Source: a phage
Strand: one strand, 5' to 3'
DNA length: 64,000 bases
Sequence record: PZ534515.1
Both the position numbers and the translations under genes were made by a program. Position 1 is the first letter of the stretch. Every line of letters begins with the position of its first letter. Positions 43,034 to 49,439 of the stretch are shown here, in pieces. The notes under the pieces were generated by a model that searched no databases, had not been told where the DNA came from, and saw nothing but the letters and a program-made list of their open reading frames with translations.

Positions 43034-44449
43034 ATGAGCGAGTTATTTAAACATGCGCACCTTCATGCAGGTCGAACTGAAAATGGTGCTGTAAACCATA
43101 CTTCATCAATGTCTGCTCTGGTAGACTTCTACAAAGCCGCTGGCTCAAGCCGTAGCAATGTAGAAATCTTACCAGACCTGTTCTACAAAGCTTTGCGTGA
43201 GGATGTTGATGTTGCAGTTCGTATTTTACTGCATATGCGAGATGTGCGAGAAGGTATGGGTGAGCGTAAAGCTTTCCGAACTGTTTTACTTCAAGCAATT
43301 GAAGATAAAGTTTTAGAACCTACACAGGTTCTCCGCATTATGGATAAGATTGCAGAACTTGGTCGTTTTGATGACTTCAAAATCTTTGTAGGTACTCGTT
43401 TTGAGACAGACGCCTTCAAACATTTAGAAGCAGCATTACTAGACCCTGCAACAGCAGGTTTAGCAGCTAAGTGGTTACCACGAGTAAAACCACGCCACAA
43501 ACAGTTTGTAAAACGTTTCTGTAAGTTTGCAAACTTAAGCGAGAAAGAGTACCGCACACTGTTATCTGCACTGTCTGATACGGTTGAGCAAAAAATCTCT
43601 GCTAATGAGTTTGGTAAGATTGACTACAGCAAGATTCCTTCACTCGCTGCTGCACGTTACCAAAAGCTCTTTAACCGTAAAGATGGGGAACGTTACAAAG
43701 CTTACATCGAGTCACTATCAAAGGGTGAGGCTAAGATTAACGCTGGTGCTGTTTACCCATATGATGTGATTAAATCTATCAAGCATGGTAATGCAGATGT
43801 TGCTAATGAGCAGTGGAAAGCACTACCAAACTGGATGGCAGAAGGTGAGAACATCTTGTGTATGACTGATGTTTCAAGCTCAATGTCTTGGGTGAATCTT
43901 GGTTCAATCACTGCCCTTGATATTGGTGTATCACTTGCCTTGTATGTAGCAGAACGCAATACAGGCTGCTTTAAGAATGAGTTAATGGTTTATTCAACAA
44001 ACCCTCACTTCATTGAACTGAGTGGCGATTTACAAAACCGTCATCGTCAGGTGATGCGTCATGTTGAATATGGTTCAACTAACTTACAAGCAGCTTTTGA
44101 CCGTATTCTTGAAATAGGTAAGAGAAACAACTTGACTCAGAAAGATATGCCAAGTAAGCTTATCATCTTCTCCGATATGGAGTTCAATCAGGTTGATGGA
44201 GCTAACGGTCGTACAAACTTTGAAGCAATTCAGAGTAAGTGCAAAAAAGCTGGATACGAAATGCCACAACTGGTATTCTGGTACTTAGCAAACCGTAATG
44301 GTACTTGCGAAGTATCTGTTAAGGATAATGGTGTAGCAATGGTATCAGGGTTCTCTCCAGCCACTTTAAAAGCTCTGCTTGGTGGTGAGAAGTTTGACCC
44401 AATCAGCGTAATGCTCAAAGCAGTAATGATTGACCGTTACATCTGGTAA
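43034..44449 (+). CDS. vWA-domain protein (MIDAS motif), possibly TROVE/Ro60-like
   Basis: ILCMTDVSSSMS fits the vWA MIDAS D-x-S-x-S motif. Alpha-helical N-terminal half. Located immediately upstream of the tRNA bank. Confidence 0.45.
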   Translation: MSELFKHAHLHAGRTENGAVNHTSSMSALVDFYKAAGSSRSNVEILPDLFYKALREDVDVAVRILLHMRDVREGMGERKAFRTVLLQAIEDKVLEPTQVLRIMDKIAELGRFDDFKIFVGTRFETDAFKHLEAALLDPATAGLAAKWLPRVKPRHKQFVKRFCKFANLSEKEYRTLLSALSDTVEQKISANEFGKIDYSKIPSLAAARYQKLFNRKDGERYKAYIESLSKGEAKINAGAVYPYDVIKSIKHGNADVANEQWKALPNWMAEGENILCMTDVSSSMSWVNLGSITALDIGVSLALYVAERNTGCFKNELMVYSTNPHFIELSGDLQNRHRQVMRHVEYGSTNLQAAFDRILEIGKRNNLTQKDMPSKLIIFSDMEFNQVDGANGRTNFEAIQSKCKKAGYEMPQLVFWYLANRNGTCEVSVKDNGVAMVSGFSPATLKALLGGEKFDPISVMLKAVMIDRYIW

Positions 44450-44467: not shown

Positions 44468-44496
44468 TTGACAATGTGTTTGATACCCTTTAATAT
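44468..44496 (+). promoter_or_regulatory. sigma70-like promoter (TTGACA-17 bp-TAATAT) flanked by an inverted repeat
   Basis: Hexamers read from sequence; aagggtat / ataccctt inverted repeat brackets the -35 and spacer. Upstream of the first tRNA. Confidence 0.55.
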
Positions 44497-44559
44497 GTTC
44501 TACATAGAAACGAAATGAGAGCTTTTCTAAGATACTGAAAAAATATTTTAAAAAAGTTC

Positions 44560-44589
44560 TTGACAACCACTAAAAAATAATGTTAAAGT
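44560..44589 (+). promoter_or_regulatory. second putative promoter upstream of the tRNA bank (TTGACA-17 bp-TAAAGT)
   Basis: Weaker -10; accact / agtggt inverted repeat. Confidence 0.35.
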
Positions 44590-44777: not shown

Positions 44778-44868
44778 GTTTTGACAGAAGACCAATTACA
44801 GCAAACTTAATCTTATTCATCTGAAGATAAATCGGACAAAGAAGAGATTTGGTCTGGTCATTAAGAAT

Positions 44869-44945: not shown

Positions 44946-45022
44946 ATTTTGCAGAAGACCGTATTCAGCAACAAACTACTTTTTGCGGATAAAAGAAAAA
45001 ACACGGTCTGGCAATGTATTAA

Positions 45023-45099: not shown

Positions 45100-45170
45100 A
45101 ATTTAGGGGAGAAGCGATTGCTCACCGATTTGTAAGGTGCAAGTCCTTAGCCTGAATAGAATAATAAAAT

Positions 45171-45342: not shown

Positions 45343-45799
45343 AATTATAATAAGTATTTCAAGATGATGTTTTGAGAGGGCTATTTATCCCCTCCCTTAA
45401 AGAGTTCTTACGAGTATTCTTTAAAGGAGCAGAAGACCAAATACAGCAAGTTACTTAAAATTTCAAGCCAATTTAATTTTGAAAAATTTAAAACTTGGTC
45501 TGGCTCAACAAATTTACAGAAGACCGTTTACAGCAAAACTTAAACAATCTATTTCTCCGGTAAAGAAAAGGCGAAGGTTCGATTCCTTCACTCGGCAGAT
45601 GTCGAGTTGGTGTAATGGTAGCACTTAAGATGATAAACAACGGTCTGGTAATTATCTTTGCAGTAGCTTATGTGGCTAATTATGTCGTCCCATGAGTGCC
45701 GATGAATTTCCTTAGCATGATTCTAGATTAGCTTAATAGGAAATGACTCTACAGACCCTTTAGCAAGGTCTGCGTAGGTTACTGCAAAGGTAATTTAAT

Positions 45800-46048: not shown

Positions 46049-46077
46049 TTGACATTAACATGTGACCACTTTATAGT
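46049..46077 (+). promoter_or_regulatory. internal sigma70-like promoter in the tRNA bank (TTGACA-17 bp-TATAGT)
   Basis: Hexamers and spacing read directly. Confidence 0.5.
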
Positions 46078-46278
46078 AACCTTAGTTTTCGTTGCGTAGC
46101 GTCTATTTTGCAAATTTAAAATAAATGCAAACGACAATGTTTTTCTGGCAGTAGCTTGATAGGCTAAACACCAGTGAGGTCTTCCAATCCCTCATCAAAG
46201 AATTTGGCGTACTCGCCCACGGTATGATTAATAAGGTGGGCATCTTTAAGGGCTTTCTAAGAGAGTCTTTAAAGATTA

Positions 46279-46499: not shown

Positions 46500-46582
46500 G
46501 TGGGACGATGTTAAGACTCTAAGGCATGAGCAACGGCCTCCAAAACCGTTTCAAAGGGGTTCAACTCCTCCGTCCCATGCCA
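46500..46582 (+). tRNA. tRNA-like gene, probable tRNA-Trp (anticodon CCA) with an enlarged D region
   Basis: Acceptor gtgggac/gtcccat, anticodon arm aacgg(c)-ctCCAaa-(a)ccgtt, T-loop ttcaact. About 7 extra nt between acceptor and anticodon arm; needs a tRNA scanner. Confidence 0.4.
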
Positions 46583-46595
46583 AAGTCTTATTAGG

Positions 46596-47695: not shown

Positions 47696-48253
47696 ATGAG
47701 ATATTTGAAGTATGCTTCATGGATTTTCCTAGCTTTGTTAGACCCATTGGCAGCAACCTTAGCAGTTATCTTAGCACCTTTTGTAGTTCCATTCTATAGT
47801 GAGAAGAAAGGACATCTACCTTTTGGATTCAGATGGATGGAGACATATGACAACCCCATTGATGGTGATGAAGGTCACATTAAACGATGGGCTAAGATTA
47901 GAAAGATTGGTAAGCTTGGTGTCTATTTGCAGAGAGTTGGATGGCTCTGGAGAAACAAAGCTTATAACTTCTCTTACCATGTGTTAGGAAGAGATATAAA
48001 AGATGTTACTAAGTGGAAAGGTAATATCAACGTAAGCTCTGACCCTGAAGATAATCAGACAGGTTATCTCCTAATGTGGAACAGTAATGCTTGGGGATTA
48101 TTCGCTTTTATCCCATCAATTAAAGTCTTTGGTAAACAATTCTACTGGAGAATTTATGTTGGGTGGAAACTAAAAAGTGTTGTCCCAGAAGAAAGAGCAT
48201 TCTCAAGGGAAAGAGTTATGTTGGCATTCTTTATTCATCCACTGAGAAAGTAA
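47696..48253 (+). CDS. hypothetical membrane protein embedded in the tRNA bank
   Basis: ATG with AAGAGG 8 nt upstream. N-terminal TM helix (WIFLALLDPLAATLAVILAPFVV), Trp-rich. Flanked by tRNAs on both sides. Confidence 0.5.
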   Translation: MRYLKYASWIFLALLDPLAATLAVILAPFVVPFYSEKKGHLPFGFRWMETYDNPIDGDEGHIKRWAKIRKIGKLGVYLQRVGWLWRNKAYNFSYHVLGRDIKDVTKWKGNINVSSDPEDNQTGYLLMWNSNAWGLFAFIPSIKVFGKQFYWRIYVGWKLKSVVPEERAFSRERVMLAFFIHPLRK

Positions 48254-48499: not shown

Positions 48500-48522
48500 C
48501 TTCTAAGGATTCTTACGAGAGT

Positions 48523-48598
48523 CTTTAAATGTGGCCTTATCATAAATGGTAATGACCCATGCTGTGAACATGGTCTATACGGGTTCAAATCCCGTAGG
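48523..48598 (+). tRNA. tRNA-His (anticodon GTG), CCA encoded
   Basis: Anticodon stem ccatg/catgg with loop ctGTGaa, T-arm acggg-ttcaaat-cccgt. Confidence 0.65.
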
Positions 48599-48603
48599 TC
48601 ACC

Positions 48604-48679
48604 CCAATTTATAGTCCAAGTAGCTTATATGGTTAAAGCGCGTGTCTGAAAAACATGAGAAGAGGGTTCAAATCCCACT
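48604..48679 (+). tRNA. tRNA-Phe (anticodon GAA), CCA encoded
   Basis: Acceptor agtccaa/ctggact, anticodon loop ctGAAaa, T-loop ttcaaat. Confidence 0.6.
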
Positions 48680-48695
48680 GGACTACCAATTTCAA

Positions 48696-49439
48696 AGGTG
48701 CTTAATGAAAGAGATGACAGAACAAGGTAAGGAGATTTTTAATCTCTTAAAAACCGGTAGAGGGTTTTCTAATCCCCTTATTACTGGTGCAGCAGTTCTA
48801 GGTGGAACCGTAGCTGCCTCTACATCACTTGTAAGCTCTATTAGCTCTGTAACAGACCCTGCAATGAAGGATAAGCTCATTGCTGCTGGACTTACAACAG
48901 TTCTGCTTAATAGCTTTACAACGAGTCTGACAAGCACTACATCAACTACTAAGACATTGACAGATTATGGTCAAAAATCTATTGATGAGTTTTCCTCACG
49001 TATGCAGGTAGCAAAAGGCTACTCCAATGTTATGGGTGCAGCAGGAGAGCAAGTTGGTTGTACACCATTTAGTGGTATTATGGGTGTTGCTACAGAGTAT
49101 GGTCAAAAAGCTATGGATACAATTAACAGCACACTAGATGGCGTTAATGATGTATTAAGTGACTTACAGGATGCTATTGATAAAGGGCTTGATACTATTT
49201 CTGATTTAGCTAACCAAGCTGTTAGTAAGATTAATGAAGGTATCTCGAAGATTACAGCTTATGCAGATGAAGTTGTGCAGATGATTGAAGAAGAAGCTGC
49301 CCTTATTGCAGAGTACCTTAAAACGAATATCAATGGGTTCTTAGCAGGTATCTTACCAGACTGGTTTGACGATGCTTGTAAAACTGGTGTGATTGACACT
49401 ATTGCAACACCAGAAATGAAGAACGCATTACAGAAATAA
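48696..49439 (+). CDS. hypothetical protein (Ser/Thr/Ala-rich, helical) between tRNA genes
   Basis: In-frame ATG just after tRNA-Phe with AAAGG upstream; the track start at 48642 would overlap the tRNA. Confidence 0.5.
   Translation, partial: RCLMKEMTEQGKEIFNLLKTGRGFSNPLITGAAVLGGTVAASTSLVSSISSVTDPAMKDKLIAAGLTTVLLNSFTTSLTSTTSTTKTLTDYGQKSIDEFSSRMQVAKGYSNVMGAAGEQVGCTPFSGIMGVATEYGQKAMDTINSTLDGVNDVLSDLQDAIDKGLDTISDLANQAVSKINEGISKITAYADEVVQMIEEEAALIAEYLKTNINGFLAGILPDWFDDACKTGVIDTIATPEMKNALQK

What the first reader, a model, noticed from the sequence alone, without database searches (positions are those of the whole stretch)
45554..45625. Orphan T-arm and 3' acceptor followed by a 5'-acceptor-like and D-arm-like sequence
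The sequence gaagg-ttcgatt-ccttc-actcggc-a at 45573-45597 is a textbook T-arm plus 3' acceptor strand, but no matching 5' acceptor lies upstream. Three nucleotides downstream, gtcgagt-tg-gtgtaatggtagcac looks like a 5' acceptor (complementary to actcggc with one GU) plus a D-arm, yet no anticodon arm or T-arm follows. This is either a disrupted tRNA remnant, a tRNA-like processing element, or (less likely) a permuted or split tRNA.
Basis: seen in the sequence. Interest (0 to 1): 0.4.

Follow-up and report, generated by a model that had tools for sequence, protein, structure and literature searches.

The report
Phage Y-RNA-like tRNA mimic
The "orphan" tRNA pieces are a complete, deliberately rearranged tRNA look-alike of the kind that bacterial Y RNAs carry, sitting 1.1 kb downstream of a Ro60-like protein gene in a Felix O1-type phage, and it is the first concrete RNA-partner candidate for a protein that is reported to help these phages escape a bacterial defence.

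Summary
At 45552-45625 lie, in order, a hairpin, a T arm, a closed 7-bp acceptor hairpin and a D arm. This is a circularly permuted tRNA-like fold with the same V-T-AS-D order as the tRNA-like domain of bacterial Y RNA YrlA. It is conserved in Felixounavirus, Suspvirus and Mooglevirus, and the acceptor stem has three fully compensated versions. The first hairpin's loop is not conserved, so this is not a decoding tRNA.

The element is enclosed by a stem followed by the motif ACAGCAA. Four such "frames" lie in the tRNA bank. The ORF just upstream (43034-44449, Pfam DUF2828 plus vWA) models as a Ro60/TROVE ring.

The same RNA architecture recurs on the gene strand next to DUF2828 genes in unrelated phages. 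A covariance model built only from those phages finds the window element at E=3.6e-8, and 24 units show strong covariation. Seven of the 24 encode NCCA after the acceptor 3' strand, which suggests RNase P opening, as in M. smegmatis YrlA.

Verdict: a Y-RNA-like tRNA mimic, and a new variant of a known kind. Binding to the protein and processing of the RNA are inferred, not shown.

The parts
43034..44449 (+). ORF of 471 aa for a Ro60-like (TROVE-ring plus vWA) protein of the DUF2828 family. It is the proposed protein partner.
   Evidence: Pfam gives DUF2828, DUF7788 and VWA_2, and PHROG 850 is 'RNA-binding protein'. The AF2 model has pLDDT 85. The top 8 Foldseek PDB hits are all Ro60/TROVE, full length, E 1e-7 to 3e-6. 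The MIDAS motif DxSxS (D279, S281, S283) is invariant. Homologues in mycobacteriophages are annotated 'Ro-like RNA binding protein'. By synteny and at least 95% identity across the genus, this is the equivalent of Bas63 gp130.
44468..44589 (+). Two sigma-70-type promoter-like sites ahead of the first tRNA. They are the presumed start of the polycistronic transcript that includes the element.
   Evidence: TTGACA-17-TAATAT and TTGACA-18-TAAAGT. The next strong site is at 46049.
44782..44860 (+). Frame unit 1: TGAC-AGA-AGACCAA..ACAGCAA..insert..TTGGTCT-G-GTCA, lying between tRNA-Glu and tRNA-Met.
44949..45014 (+). Frame unit 2: TTGC-AGA-AGACCGT..TCAGCAA..insert..ACGGTCT-G-GCAA, lying between tRNA-Met and tRNA-Asn.
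   Evidence: In relatives the outer helix is TTGC/GCAA or TTAC/GTAA.
45427..45506 (+). Frame unit 3: GAGC-AGA-AGACCAA..ACAGCAA..hairpin..TTGGTCT-G-GCTC.
45514..45651 (+). Frame unit 4, the complete Y-like RNA unit. It has an outer helix TTAC/GTAA, an internal loop AGA/G, an inner helix AGACCGTT/AACGGTCT and the motif ACAGCAA (45530-45536), and it encloses the tRNA-like module.
   Evidence: CM R1 matches 45520-45648 over its full length.
45552..45568 (+). V hairpin (tttct-ccggtaa-agaaa). It resembles an anticodon arm when the sequence is de-permuted, and it corresponds to the YrlA 'V' stem-loop.
   Evidence: The stem is kept but the loop is not conserved.
45573..45589 (+). T arm with the canonical loop TTCGATT.
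   Evidence: It is almost unchanged in relatives: one stem pair becomes G-U and one loop base changes in single sequences.
45590..45607 (+). Acceptor-like hairpin of 7 bp, closed by the loop a-gat. The predicted RNase P site is 5' of G45601.
   Evidence: Three covarying haplotypes: ACTCGGC/GTCGAGT, ACACGTT/GGCGTGT and ACCCTTC/GAAGGGT. All 7 pairs covary across the family. NCCA is encoded at the start of the loop in 7 of 24 family members.
45608..45625 (+). U8-G9, then the D arm gtgt-aatggta-gcac, then U26.
   Evidence: A14, G18, G19 and A21 are present. The D stem is invariant in relatives, and only D-loop position 20 varies.
45372..45426 (+). Two conserved hairpins upstream of unit 3. Their role is unknown.
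   Evidence: There is an A-U to G-C compensatory change in the second hairpin.
45652..45795 (+). A long conserved hairpin domain downstream of unit 4. It occurs as two alleles in Felixounavirus. Its role is unknown.
   Evidence: The stem is CTTTGCAGTA/TACTGCAAAG in one allele and CTTTGTAGATAAG/CTTATCTACAAAG in the other.

Best explanation
The element is the tRNA-like module (V hairpin, T arm, closed acceptor hairpin, D arm) of a Y-RNA-like non-coding RNA at 45514-45651.

Shown here:
- The fold, its covariation, and its conservation in three Ounavirinae genera.
- Its membership of an RNA family that lies on the gene strand next to DUF2828-type Ro60-like genes in phages of Proteobacteria, Firmicutes and Actinobacteria.
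- The Ro60-like fold of the ORF at 43034-44449, 1.1 kb upstream.

Inferred:
- The RNA is co-transcribed with the tRNA bank from the promoters at about 44468 and 44560.
- It is released by the nucleases that mature the neighbouring tRNAs.
- Its closing stem and the adjacent single-stranded ACAGCAA motif form the binding site for the Ro60-like protein. All four frame units share these two features, whether or not they carry the tRNA-like insert.
- The T and D loops form a tRNA elbow that recruits tRNA-recognising factors.
- The 7-bp acceptor hairpin is cut by RNase P 5' of G45601, and the new 3' end is trimmed and given CCA. This would make a two-piece tRNA-like end, as reported for M. smegmatis YrlA.
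- By analogy with Rsr/Y RNA/PNPase and with phiLo Ro60/Yrl, the RNA gates or tethers the Ro60-like ring to host RNA-handling enzymes during infection.
For: Anatomy.

Conservation and compensatory changes in relatives.

Order V-T-AS-D as in YrlA, and RNase P cleavage plus CCA addition for a 7-bp AS: PMC4201824.

Ro60-like ORF. The element is on the same strand and within 4 kb of it, which is the criterion used for YrlA.

Recurrence: the same T-AS-D element lies next to DUF2828 genes in LeBron, Krypton555, phiM19 and MrDarsey. Their units are sub-threshold hits to Rfam YrlA RF02553.

Shared closing helix plus CAGCAA frame.

Leave-clade-out covariance model: E=3.6e-8 in the window.

24 full-length units, all on the gene strand, in 739 kb. 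94.9% of cells are paired against 59% in shuffles, and 19 of 24 pairs have changes on both sides.

Strand bias in 75 metagenomic loci: 12 versus 0 for T-AS-D, and 99 versus 25 for frames.

NCCA encoded at the start of the loop in 7 of 24 units.

The Bas63 preprint states that gp130 is Ro60-like, lies directly upstream of the tRNAs and counters Ppl, and it guesses that Y RNAs hide among the tRNAs.
Against: There is no expression, end-mapping or binding data for this RNA.

Rfam YrlA (RF02553) does not match the window even at E<=10.

The YrlA motif GNCGAAN0-1G is absent from the stem. A GGCGAAG at 45570-45576 overlaps the T stem and is not conserved.

The protein is a structural homologue only. 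It has no Pfam TROVE hit, and PDB profile hits to Ro60 are at E about 1.

gp130 alone, expressed from a plasmid or from T7, restores plaquing on the Ppl strain. The RNA is therefore not required for that phenotype.

Only three independent acceptor haplotypes exist within Ounavirinae.

The alignment used for the family covariation counts was fitted to the model.
Confidence: 0.72

Rival explanations
1. The tRNA mimic acts independently of the Ro60-like protein. It could be an RNase P punctuation signal for processing the long tRNA-bank transcript. It could also be a decoy or sponge for host tRNA-targeting defence nucleases or tRNA-modifying enzymes. On this reading, proximity to the DUF2828 gene only reflects both being parked in tRNA banks.
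For: DUF2828 genes and the units both sit next to tRNA clusters in many phages, so linkage could be indirect. gp130 works without the RNAs in T7. A 7-bp acceptor hairpin next to a T arm is the minimal RNase P substrate.
Against: In LeBron and Krypton555 the units lie directly downstream of the Ro-like gene with no called tRNA in the adjoining stretch. ARAGORN finds none in the 11-kb LeBron locus, and one tRNA 2.6 kb away in Krypton555. RNase P already cuts at every downstream tRNA, so no extra punctuation is needed. Units without any tRNA-like insert share the conserved stem and CAGCAA motif, which points to a common ligand.
Confidence: 0.17
2. This is a genuine circularly permuted (or two-piece) tRNA gene. 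It is matured, by circularisation or by RNase P cleavage plus CCA addition, into a decoding or aminoacylated tRNA-Thr(GGU)-like molecule.
For: All tRNA elements are present, and the de-permuted sequence passes ARAGORN as tRNA-Thr(GGT). The Suspvirus copy has U33 and a GGT anticodon. NCCA is encoded after the acceptor strand in some relatives.
Against: The putative anticodon loop is 6 nt in many Felixounavirus genomes, reads TAT or ATG in others, and is a 5-nt loop in the Mordin/Moogle type. Family members in other phages have no anticodon-arm equivalent, only a variable V region. No BHB motif and no intron-like flanks are present. The bank already has tRNA-Thr(TGT).
Confidence: 0.04
3. This is a decaying remnant of two tandem tRNA copies, with the 5' part of the first and the 3' part of the second deleted, and it has no function.
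For: tRNA banks evolve by duplication. The Felix O1 record flags one tRNA (tRNA-Tyr) as a pseudogene, and T-arm-like debris lies in a nearby spacer.
Against: The T and D arms are almost unchanged, and the acceptor stem is fully compensated, across three genera whose flanking linkers diverge. The element is a full-length match to a model built from unrelated phages. Family-wide covariation is strong.
Confidence: 0.03

Closest known systems
YrlA, the tRNA-like bacterial Y RNA (Rfam RF02553; S. Typhimurium, M. smegmatis, mycobacteriophage ET08; Chen et al. 2014, PMC4201824)
   Same: The stem-loops come in the order V, T, AS, D. The T and D loops carry the tRNA tertiary-interaction nucleotides. 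The 5' and 3' ends pair into a stem. The RNA is encoded within 4 kb of, and on the same strand as, a Ro60-type gene. [quoted passage not shown]
   Different: There is no GNCGAAN0-1G motif. Instead an (A)CAGCAA(U) motif follows the closing helix. The Rfam model does not detect the window copy. The partner is a DUF2828-type protein rather than a Pfam-TROVE protein. The RNA is embedded in a tRNA bank as one of four tandem frame units. In Ounavirinae there is an extra outer helix with an AGA/G internal loop.
Thermus phage phiLo phiRo60 with Yrl1/Yrl2 (PMC12135203)
   Same: A phage-encoded Ro60 homologue has adjacent Y-RNA-like genes. Each RNA has a 5'-3' stem flanking a loop that holds a short conserved motif. 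The proposed function is hijacking of host PNPase.
   Different: The phiLo Yrls were picked by a CGAA motif and are not described as tRNA-like. They lie upstream of the gene. No tRNA bank is involved.
Circularly permuted tRNA genes (Cyanidioschyzon merolae and some archaea; from my own knowledge and PMC4090602, which I found in the search but did not read)
   Same: The 3' half (T arm plus 3' acceptor strand) precedes the 5' half (5' acceptor strand plus D arm), with a short linker across the acceptor ends. RNase P is expected to open the linker.
   Different: Those genes yield real decoding tRNAs, through a BHB motif, a splicing endonuclease and a ligase. Here there is no BHB, no conserved anticodon, and a bacterial host.
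Two-piece (permuted) tmRNA
   Same: It has a permuted tRNA-like domain in which the T arm and 3' acceptor strand lie upstream of the 5' acceptor strand.
   Different: There is no G3:U70 alanine identity (the pair here is C3-G70) and no tag reading frame was seen. Neither tmRNA model scores on the element, and ARAGORN, which also reports tmRNA genes, listed only tRNAs in the window.

Membership tests
YrlA / bacterial Y RNA tRNA-like class | Conserved T-like and D-like stem-loops separated by an acceptor-like stem-loop, preceded by a V region (order V-T-AS-D) | tested here: met
   The family definition is taken from PMC4201824.
YrlA / bacterial Y RNA tRNA-like class | Nucleotides for tRNA tertiary contacts: U8, A14, G18-G19, A21, G53, T54-T55-C56, A58, C61 | tested here: met
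   All are read directly from 45573-45624. The Levitt partner is A15 with C48/A48, which is not canonical.
YrlA / bacterial Y RNA tRNA-like class | The 5' and 3' flanks pair into a stem that encloses the module | tested here: met
   AGACCGTT/AACGGTCT plus TTAC/GTAA. The stem covaries among the four paralogues and across the family.
YrlA / bacterial Y RNA tRNA-like class | GNCGAAN0-1G (Ro-binding) motif near the 5' end | tested here: not met
   The stem has RCAGAAGACC and then ACAGCAA instead. The only GGCGAAG overlaps the T stem and is not conserved.
YrlA / bacterial Y RNA tRNA-like class | Encoded within about 4 kb of a Ro60 orthologue and on the same strand | tested here: met
   The ORF at 43034-44449 is Ro60-like by fold, lies 1.1 kb upstream and is on the + strand. 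It is a structural homologue only.
YrlA / bacterial Y RNA tRNA-like class | Match to Rfam RF02553 at the gathering score (69 bits) | tested here: not met
   There is no match at E<=1 or at E<=10 on 457 nt. The related LeBron and Krypton555 units score 38-40 bits.
YrlA / bacterial Y RNA tRNA-like class | Bound by the Ro60 protein; modified by TruB and DusA; cleaved by RNase P | not testable with these tools
   This needs RIP or EMSA, modification mapping, and an M1 RNA assay.
DUF2828-associated CAGCAA-frame RNAs (family delineated here) | A closing helix, followed within 1-4 nt by (A)CAGCAA(U), then a variable insert, then the 3' strand, on the strand of a nearby DUF2828 gene | tested here: met
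   Four units lie in the window. CM R1, built without Ounavirinae, gives E=3.6e-8. Strand bias is 99 versus 25.
Circularly permuted tRNA genes | A BHB motif formed by leader and trailer, and a conserved functional anticodon loop | tested here: not met
   The leader/trailer helix carries an AGA/G internal loop, not a 3-4-3 BHB. The loop varies in length and sequence.
Permuted tmRNA | The G3:U70 pair, a tag ORF, and an Rfam or ARAGORN tmRNA call | tested here: not met
   The pair is C3-G70. ARAGORN lists only tRNAs in the window. No tmRNA or tmRNA_permuted match falls on the element.
Ro60/TROVE proteins (for ORF 43034-44449) | A HEAT-repeat ring followed by a vWA domain with a MIDAS motif | tested here: met
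   The AF2 model has pLDDT 85 and pTM 0.86. The 8 best PDB matches are all Ro60/TROVE over 513-562 columns. The DVSGSM motif is invariant.
Ro60/TROVE proteins (for ORF 43034-44449) | Sequence-level match to Pfam TROVE or to solved Ro60 structures | tested here: not met
   Pfam gives DUF2828, DUF7788 and VWA_2 only. phmmer against the PDB finds nothing. A profile search reaches Ro60 only at E about 1, in the MIDAS region.

The most novel reading that the evidence does not exclude
The four frames in this tRNA bank, and their counterparts in phages of Gram-negative, Gram-positive and actinobacterial hosts, form an undescribed and widespread class of Y-like RNAs. Each is a short stem-loop with an ACAGCAAU motif, and some carry tRNA-arm inserts. 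On this reading they are the cognate ligands of DUF2828-type Ro60 homologues. The unit with the full T-AS-D insert would be opened by RNase P into a two-piece tRNA-like molecule with a CCA end, which couples the Ro60-like ring to the tRNA or RNA-repair machinery during infection and counter-defence.
Probability: 0.45. Interest if true: 0.75.

Novelty: new variant of a known kind. Interest (0 to 1): 0.62.

Why it matters
The Ro60-like protein of Felix O1-type phages (Bas63 gp130) was recently reported to counter the Ppl defence system. The authors could only guess that some annotated tRNAs might be its Y RNAs.

This analysis names specific unannotated RNAs, one YrlA-like tRNA mimic and three simpler units, with exact coordinates, a conserved candidate protein-binding motif and a predicted RNase P site. 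That makes the ribonucleoprotein directly testable.

It also suggests three broader points:
- DUF2828 proteins, present in 710 of about 50,700 phage records, are Ro60 analogues with their own RNA family.
- That family is missed by Rfam's YrlA model in this phage.
- Spacers in phage tRNA banks can encode functional RNAs rather than junk.

Tried and rejected
1. Permuted group I intron (intron halves flanking exons, giving a circular tRNA). There is no G before the 3' exon, the candidate P1 pairing is absent in the Felix O1 allele, and there is no Rfam intron hit.

2. Frames read as sigma-70 promoters (TTGACA/TTTACA ... A/T-rich -10). The promoter scan finds none there. The outer and inner helices covary, which argues for RNA pairing.

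3. Hairpin-ribozyme-like loop A (AGAA). The opposite strand lacks N*GUC and there is no loop B. I rejected this on inspection.

4. tmRNA. Rejected, as set out in the membership test.

5. Collection scan with CAGAAGACC-N3-6-CAGCAA. It returned mostly chance coding matches. Only the Ounavirinae loci had complementary 3' strands. The chance loci were reused as a background set.

6. MAFFT alignment of the short frame units (A5). It was too poorly aligned, and contained one bogus entry that I added by mistake, so no model of the short units was built.

7. Sequence search of the ORF against the PDB. It was negative. The relationship appeared only through fold comparison.

8. Relaxed T-AS-D scan.

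9. Two Y-RNA reviews (PMC10870794, PMC6047535) and the supplementary tables of Chen et al. 2014 are not held. I therefore could not check whether any DUF2828 phage was in their list of 22 phages.

Full report
**What is there.** The window is a Felix O1-like phage (Ounavirinae). The 457-nt spacer that holds the finding matches 252 phage records, all from Felixounavirus, Suspvirus or Mooglevirus. ARAGORN finds 26 tRNAs on the + strand between 44616 and 49613. The finding lies in the largest RNA-only gap, 45343-45799, between tRNA-Asp and tRNA-Lys.

- T arm at 45573-45589
- 3' acceptor strand at 45590-45596
- A45597, then the linker gat
- 5' acceptor strand at 45601-45607, which gives 7 pairs with the 3' strand, one of them G-U
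- tg, then a D arm at 45610-45624

With it, every tRNA part is present in the order [27-73]-gat-[1-26]. When I joined 45601-45625 to 45552-45597, ARAGORN called a tRNA-Thr(GGT) at default settings. Rfam matches the region only weakly and partially, as tRNA at 22 bits, and finds no intron, tmRNA or other family there.

**Is it more than chance?** A generic scanner looked for a 5-bp T stem with a TTCRA loop, a 7-nt acceptor hairpin with at least 6 pairs, and a D arm with GG.
- It finds this site and nothing else in 64 kb on both strands.
- In 1.1 Mb of unrelated viral contigs it finds one site, and that site also lies in a tRNA bank of a 169-kb phage contig.

**Relatives.** No relative has an intact tRNA at this position. 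All carry the same permuted arrangement.
- The T arm is almost unchanged (one stem pair becomes G-U and one loop base changes in single sequences). The D stem is invariant and only D-loop position 20 varies.
- The acceptor hairpin exists in three versions, each fully paired: ACTCGGC/GTCGAGT, ACACGTT/GGCGTGT and ACCCTTC/GAAGGGT. Three pairs change on both sides.
- G-U pairs occur only when the + strand is read, which is the strand of the tRNAs.
- The loop of the upstream hairpin is not conserved: CCGGTAA, CGGTAA, CTGGTAA, CTTATAA and CTATGAA, and a 5-nt loop in Mordin and Moogle. The element is therefore not a decoding tRNA.
- The Mordin type encodes G-CCA directly after the acceptor 3' strand.

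**The frame.** The module is enclosed by an 8-bp helix, AGACCGTT/AACGGTCT, and a 4-bp outer helix, TTAC/GTAA. The two helices are separated by an AGA/G internal loop, and the inner helix is followed by ACAGCAA.

The same frame occurs four times in the bank, at 44782-44860, 44949-45014, 45427-45506 and 45514-45651.
- The outer helices are TGAC/GTCA, TTGC/GCAA, GAGC/GCTC and TTAC/GTAA.
- The inner extensions are CAA/TTG or CGT/ACG.
- In relatives, unit 2 switches between TTGC/GCAA and TTAC/GTAA.

Units 1 and 2 fill the spacers between tRNAs almost completely. Strong sigma-70-like promoters lie at 44468 and 44560, and the next is at 46049. None lies inside the frames. The units are therefore presumably part of the tRNA precursor. 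That is an inference.

**The neighbouring gene.** The last ORF before the bank, 43034-44449 on the + strand, matches Pfam DUF2828, DUF7788 and VWA_2 and PHROG 850, 'RNA-binding protein'.
- Sequence searches against the PDB are negative or marginal.
- An AlphaFold2 model built on a 32-sequence alignment has pLDDT 85 and pTM 0.86.
- Its eight best PDB matches are all Ro60/TROVE proteins: Thermus phage phiLo Ro60, human and Xenopus Ro60, and Deinococcus Rsr. They align over the full length at E 1e-7 to 3e-6.
- The MIDAS motif DxSxS is invariant.
- tblastn finds homologues in 710 phage records, and some mycobacteriophage copies are annotated 'Ro-like RNA binding protein'.

A 2024 preprint on the Felixounavirus Bas63 reports that gp130 is Ro60-like by structure, lies directly upstream of the tRNA genes and counters the Ppl defence system. 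It speculates that some of the tRNA genes might be Y RNAs, but it identifies no RNA. It also shows that gp130 alone rescues T7 on Ppl.

**Comparison with Y RNAs.** Chen et al. 2014 (PMC4201824) describe YrlA as having V, T, AS and D stem-loops that mimic a tRNA whose acceptor stem is closed by a loop.
- YrlA is encoded within 4 kb of Ro60 and on the same strand.
- The M. smegmatis YrlA, which has a 7-bp AS, is cleaved by RNase P and receives CCA in vivo.

The window element has this architecture and this genomic relation. It lacks the GNCGAAN0-1G motif, and Rfam's YrlA model does not detect it.

**Independent lineages.** I fetched the DUF2828 loci of 11 unrelated phages.
- The strict scanner finds T-AS-D elements on the gene strand in LeBron and Krypton555, about 150 nt downstream of the gene in both.
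- It also finds them in Sinorhizobium phiM19, with A-CCA encoded, and in Bacillus MrDarsey, inside its tRNA bank. Citrobacter Ci1 gives a weaker hit.
- Rfam YrlA hits the LeBron and Krypton555 units below threshold, at 38-40 bits.
- All of these units share the frame: a closing helix followed within a few nucleotides by (A)CAGCAA(U).
- Tandem arrays of short units with the same frame, but without the tRNA-like insert, flank the gene in Aeromonas, Campylobacter, Listeria, Enterococcus, Staphylococcus, Bacillus and mycobacterial phages.

**Leave-clade-out test.** I built a covariance model from five non-Ounavirinae units only.
- It finds 45520-45648 as the top hit in the window, full length, at 48.7 bits and E=3.6e-8. 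The runner-up is a tRNA-tRNA junction at E=0.046.
- It also finds the Mordin and SUSP2 copies and a second phiM19 unit.

In 75 further metagenomic DUF2828 loci:
- T-AS-D elements occur 12 times on the gene strand and never on the opposite strand.
- CAGCAA frames occur 99 times on the gene strand and 25 times on the opposite strand.
- Searching those loci together with the window and five earlier loci, the model retrieves 24 full-length units, all on the gene strand.

On the alignment of those units, 94.9% of cells pair, against 59% in shuffles and about 40% when partners are slid. Nineteen of 24 pairs change on both sides, and all four helices are supported. The caveat is that this alignment was fitted to the model.

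Seven of the 24 units encode NCCA at the first positions of the acceptor loop. About 0.4 would be expected by chance. This argues that the hairpin is opened to give a tRNA-like 3' end.

**Interpretation.** The finding is the tRNA-like module of a Y-RNA-like RNA that belongs with the phage's Ro60-like protein.
- Shown: the fold, the covariation, the family membership, and the gene-strand association with DUF2828-type Ro60-like genes.
- Inferred: co-transcription with the tRNAs, release by tRNA-processing nucleases, binding of the protein to the closing stem and CAGCAA motif, RNase P cleavage 5' of G45601 with CCA addition, and a role in tethering or gating the Ro60-like ring.

Because gp130 alone suffices against Ppl, the RNAs may serve another function or a modulatory one.

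The alternatives are weighed in the rival explanations. They are an independent RNase P punctuation signal or decoy, a true permuted tRNA, and a dead remnant.

**Novelty.** Phage Ro60 homologues with Y-like RNAs are known (PMC4201824, PMC12135203, PMC7824862). Searches of the held literature found nothing on the RNA described here: a CAGCAA-frame family linked to DUF2828 proteins, present as four units in a tRNA bank, one of them a YrlA-like tRNA mimic. The terms tried were 'DUF2828', 'permuted tRNA' with bacteriophage, and 'Felix O1' with tRNA-like. The supplementary phage list of Chen et al. is not held, so I could not check for overlap with their 22 phages. I rate this a new variant of a known kind.

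Noticed in passing
window 46500-46583 (+): A probable tRNA-Trp(CCA) that ARAGORN did not call. It has an acceptor gtgggac/gtcccat followed by g-cca, an anticodon loop CTCCAAA with a C31-A39 mismatch, and an odd D arm. Rfam gives only a 23-bit tRNA-Sec-type hit at 46502-46576. If it is real, the bank covers all 20 amino acids.
   Followed up: partly
window 44782-44860, 44949-45014, 45427-45506 (+): Three further stem-loop units share the frame N4-AGA-AGACC..(A/T)CAGCAA..GGTCT-G-N4' but have no tRNA-like insert. Two of them fill tRNA-tRNA spacers almost exactly.
   Followed up: yes
window 45652-45795 (+): A long, conserved, imperfect hairpin lies directly after unit 4. Felixounavirus genomes carry one of two very different alleles whose stems are kept by compensatory changes and a paired insertion. 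The start, GCAGTAGCTTATGTGGCTAA, resembles a tRNA 5' end with a D arm, and it has a paralogue at 46148-46167.
   Followed up: partly
window 45396-45427, 46244-46273, 48500-48529 (+): A recurring hairpin of the type CTTTAAAGAGTTC-TTAC-GAGTATTCTTTAAAG. The latter two copies lie immediately before tRNA-Arg and tRNA-His. The first shows an A-U to G-C compensatory change in relatives.
   Followed up: no
window 45100-45170 (+): The spacer between tRNA-Asn and tRNA-Tyr contains a T-arm-like AAGGTGCAAGTCCTT, with a TGCAAGT loop instead of the TTCRA type. It may be tRNA debris or another mimic.
   Followed up: no
window 47696-48253 and 48642-49439 (+): Two ORFs inside the tRNA bank belong to phage families of unknown function, DUF7338 and DUF7217. 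They are not homing endonucleases as one might expect there.
   Followed up: no
L160 (Listeria phage LP-083-2) 3429-3980: A near-threshold ROOL RNA match (87 bits, gathering score 99, E=4e-16) lies between the tRNA bank and the DUF2828 gene. An RtcB-like ligase and an RNA ligase lie a few kb downstream.
   Followed up: no
L156-L166 (DUF2828 loci of unrelated phages): DUF2828 Ro60-like genes sit beside tRNA clusters in Campylobacter, Listeria, Enterococcus, Bacillus and Citrobacter phages. RNA-repair or tRNA enzymes are nearby: RNA ligase 2 in Aeromonas LAh_9 and a CCA-adding enzyme in Citrobacter Ci1.
   Followed up: partly
L163 3840-3924 and L164 2994-3072: Some CAGCAA units carry only a T-arm-like hairpin (ggggttcaattcccc, gggacttcgaaactccc), reminiscent of YrlB. 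Several short units in L156, L158 and L163 have D-loop-like hairpins (CAATGGT, AATTGG).
   Followed up: no
L196 3741-3921: In one family member the acceptor-hairpin loop carries a 72-nt insertion between otherwise intact 7-bp strands.
   Followed up: no
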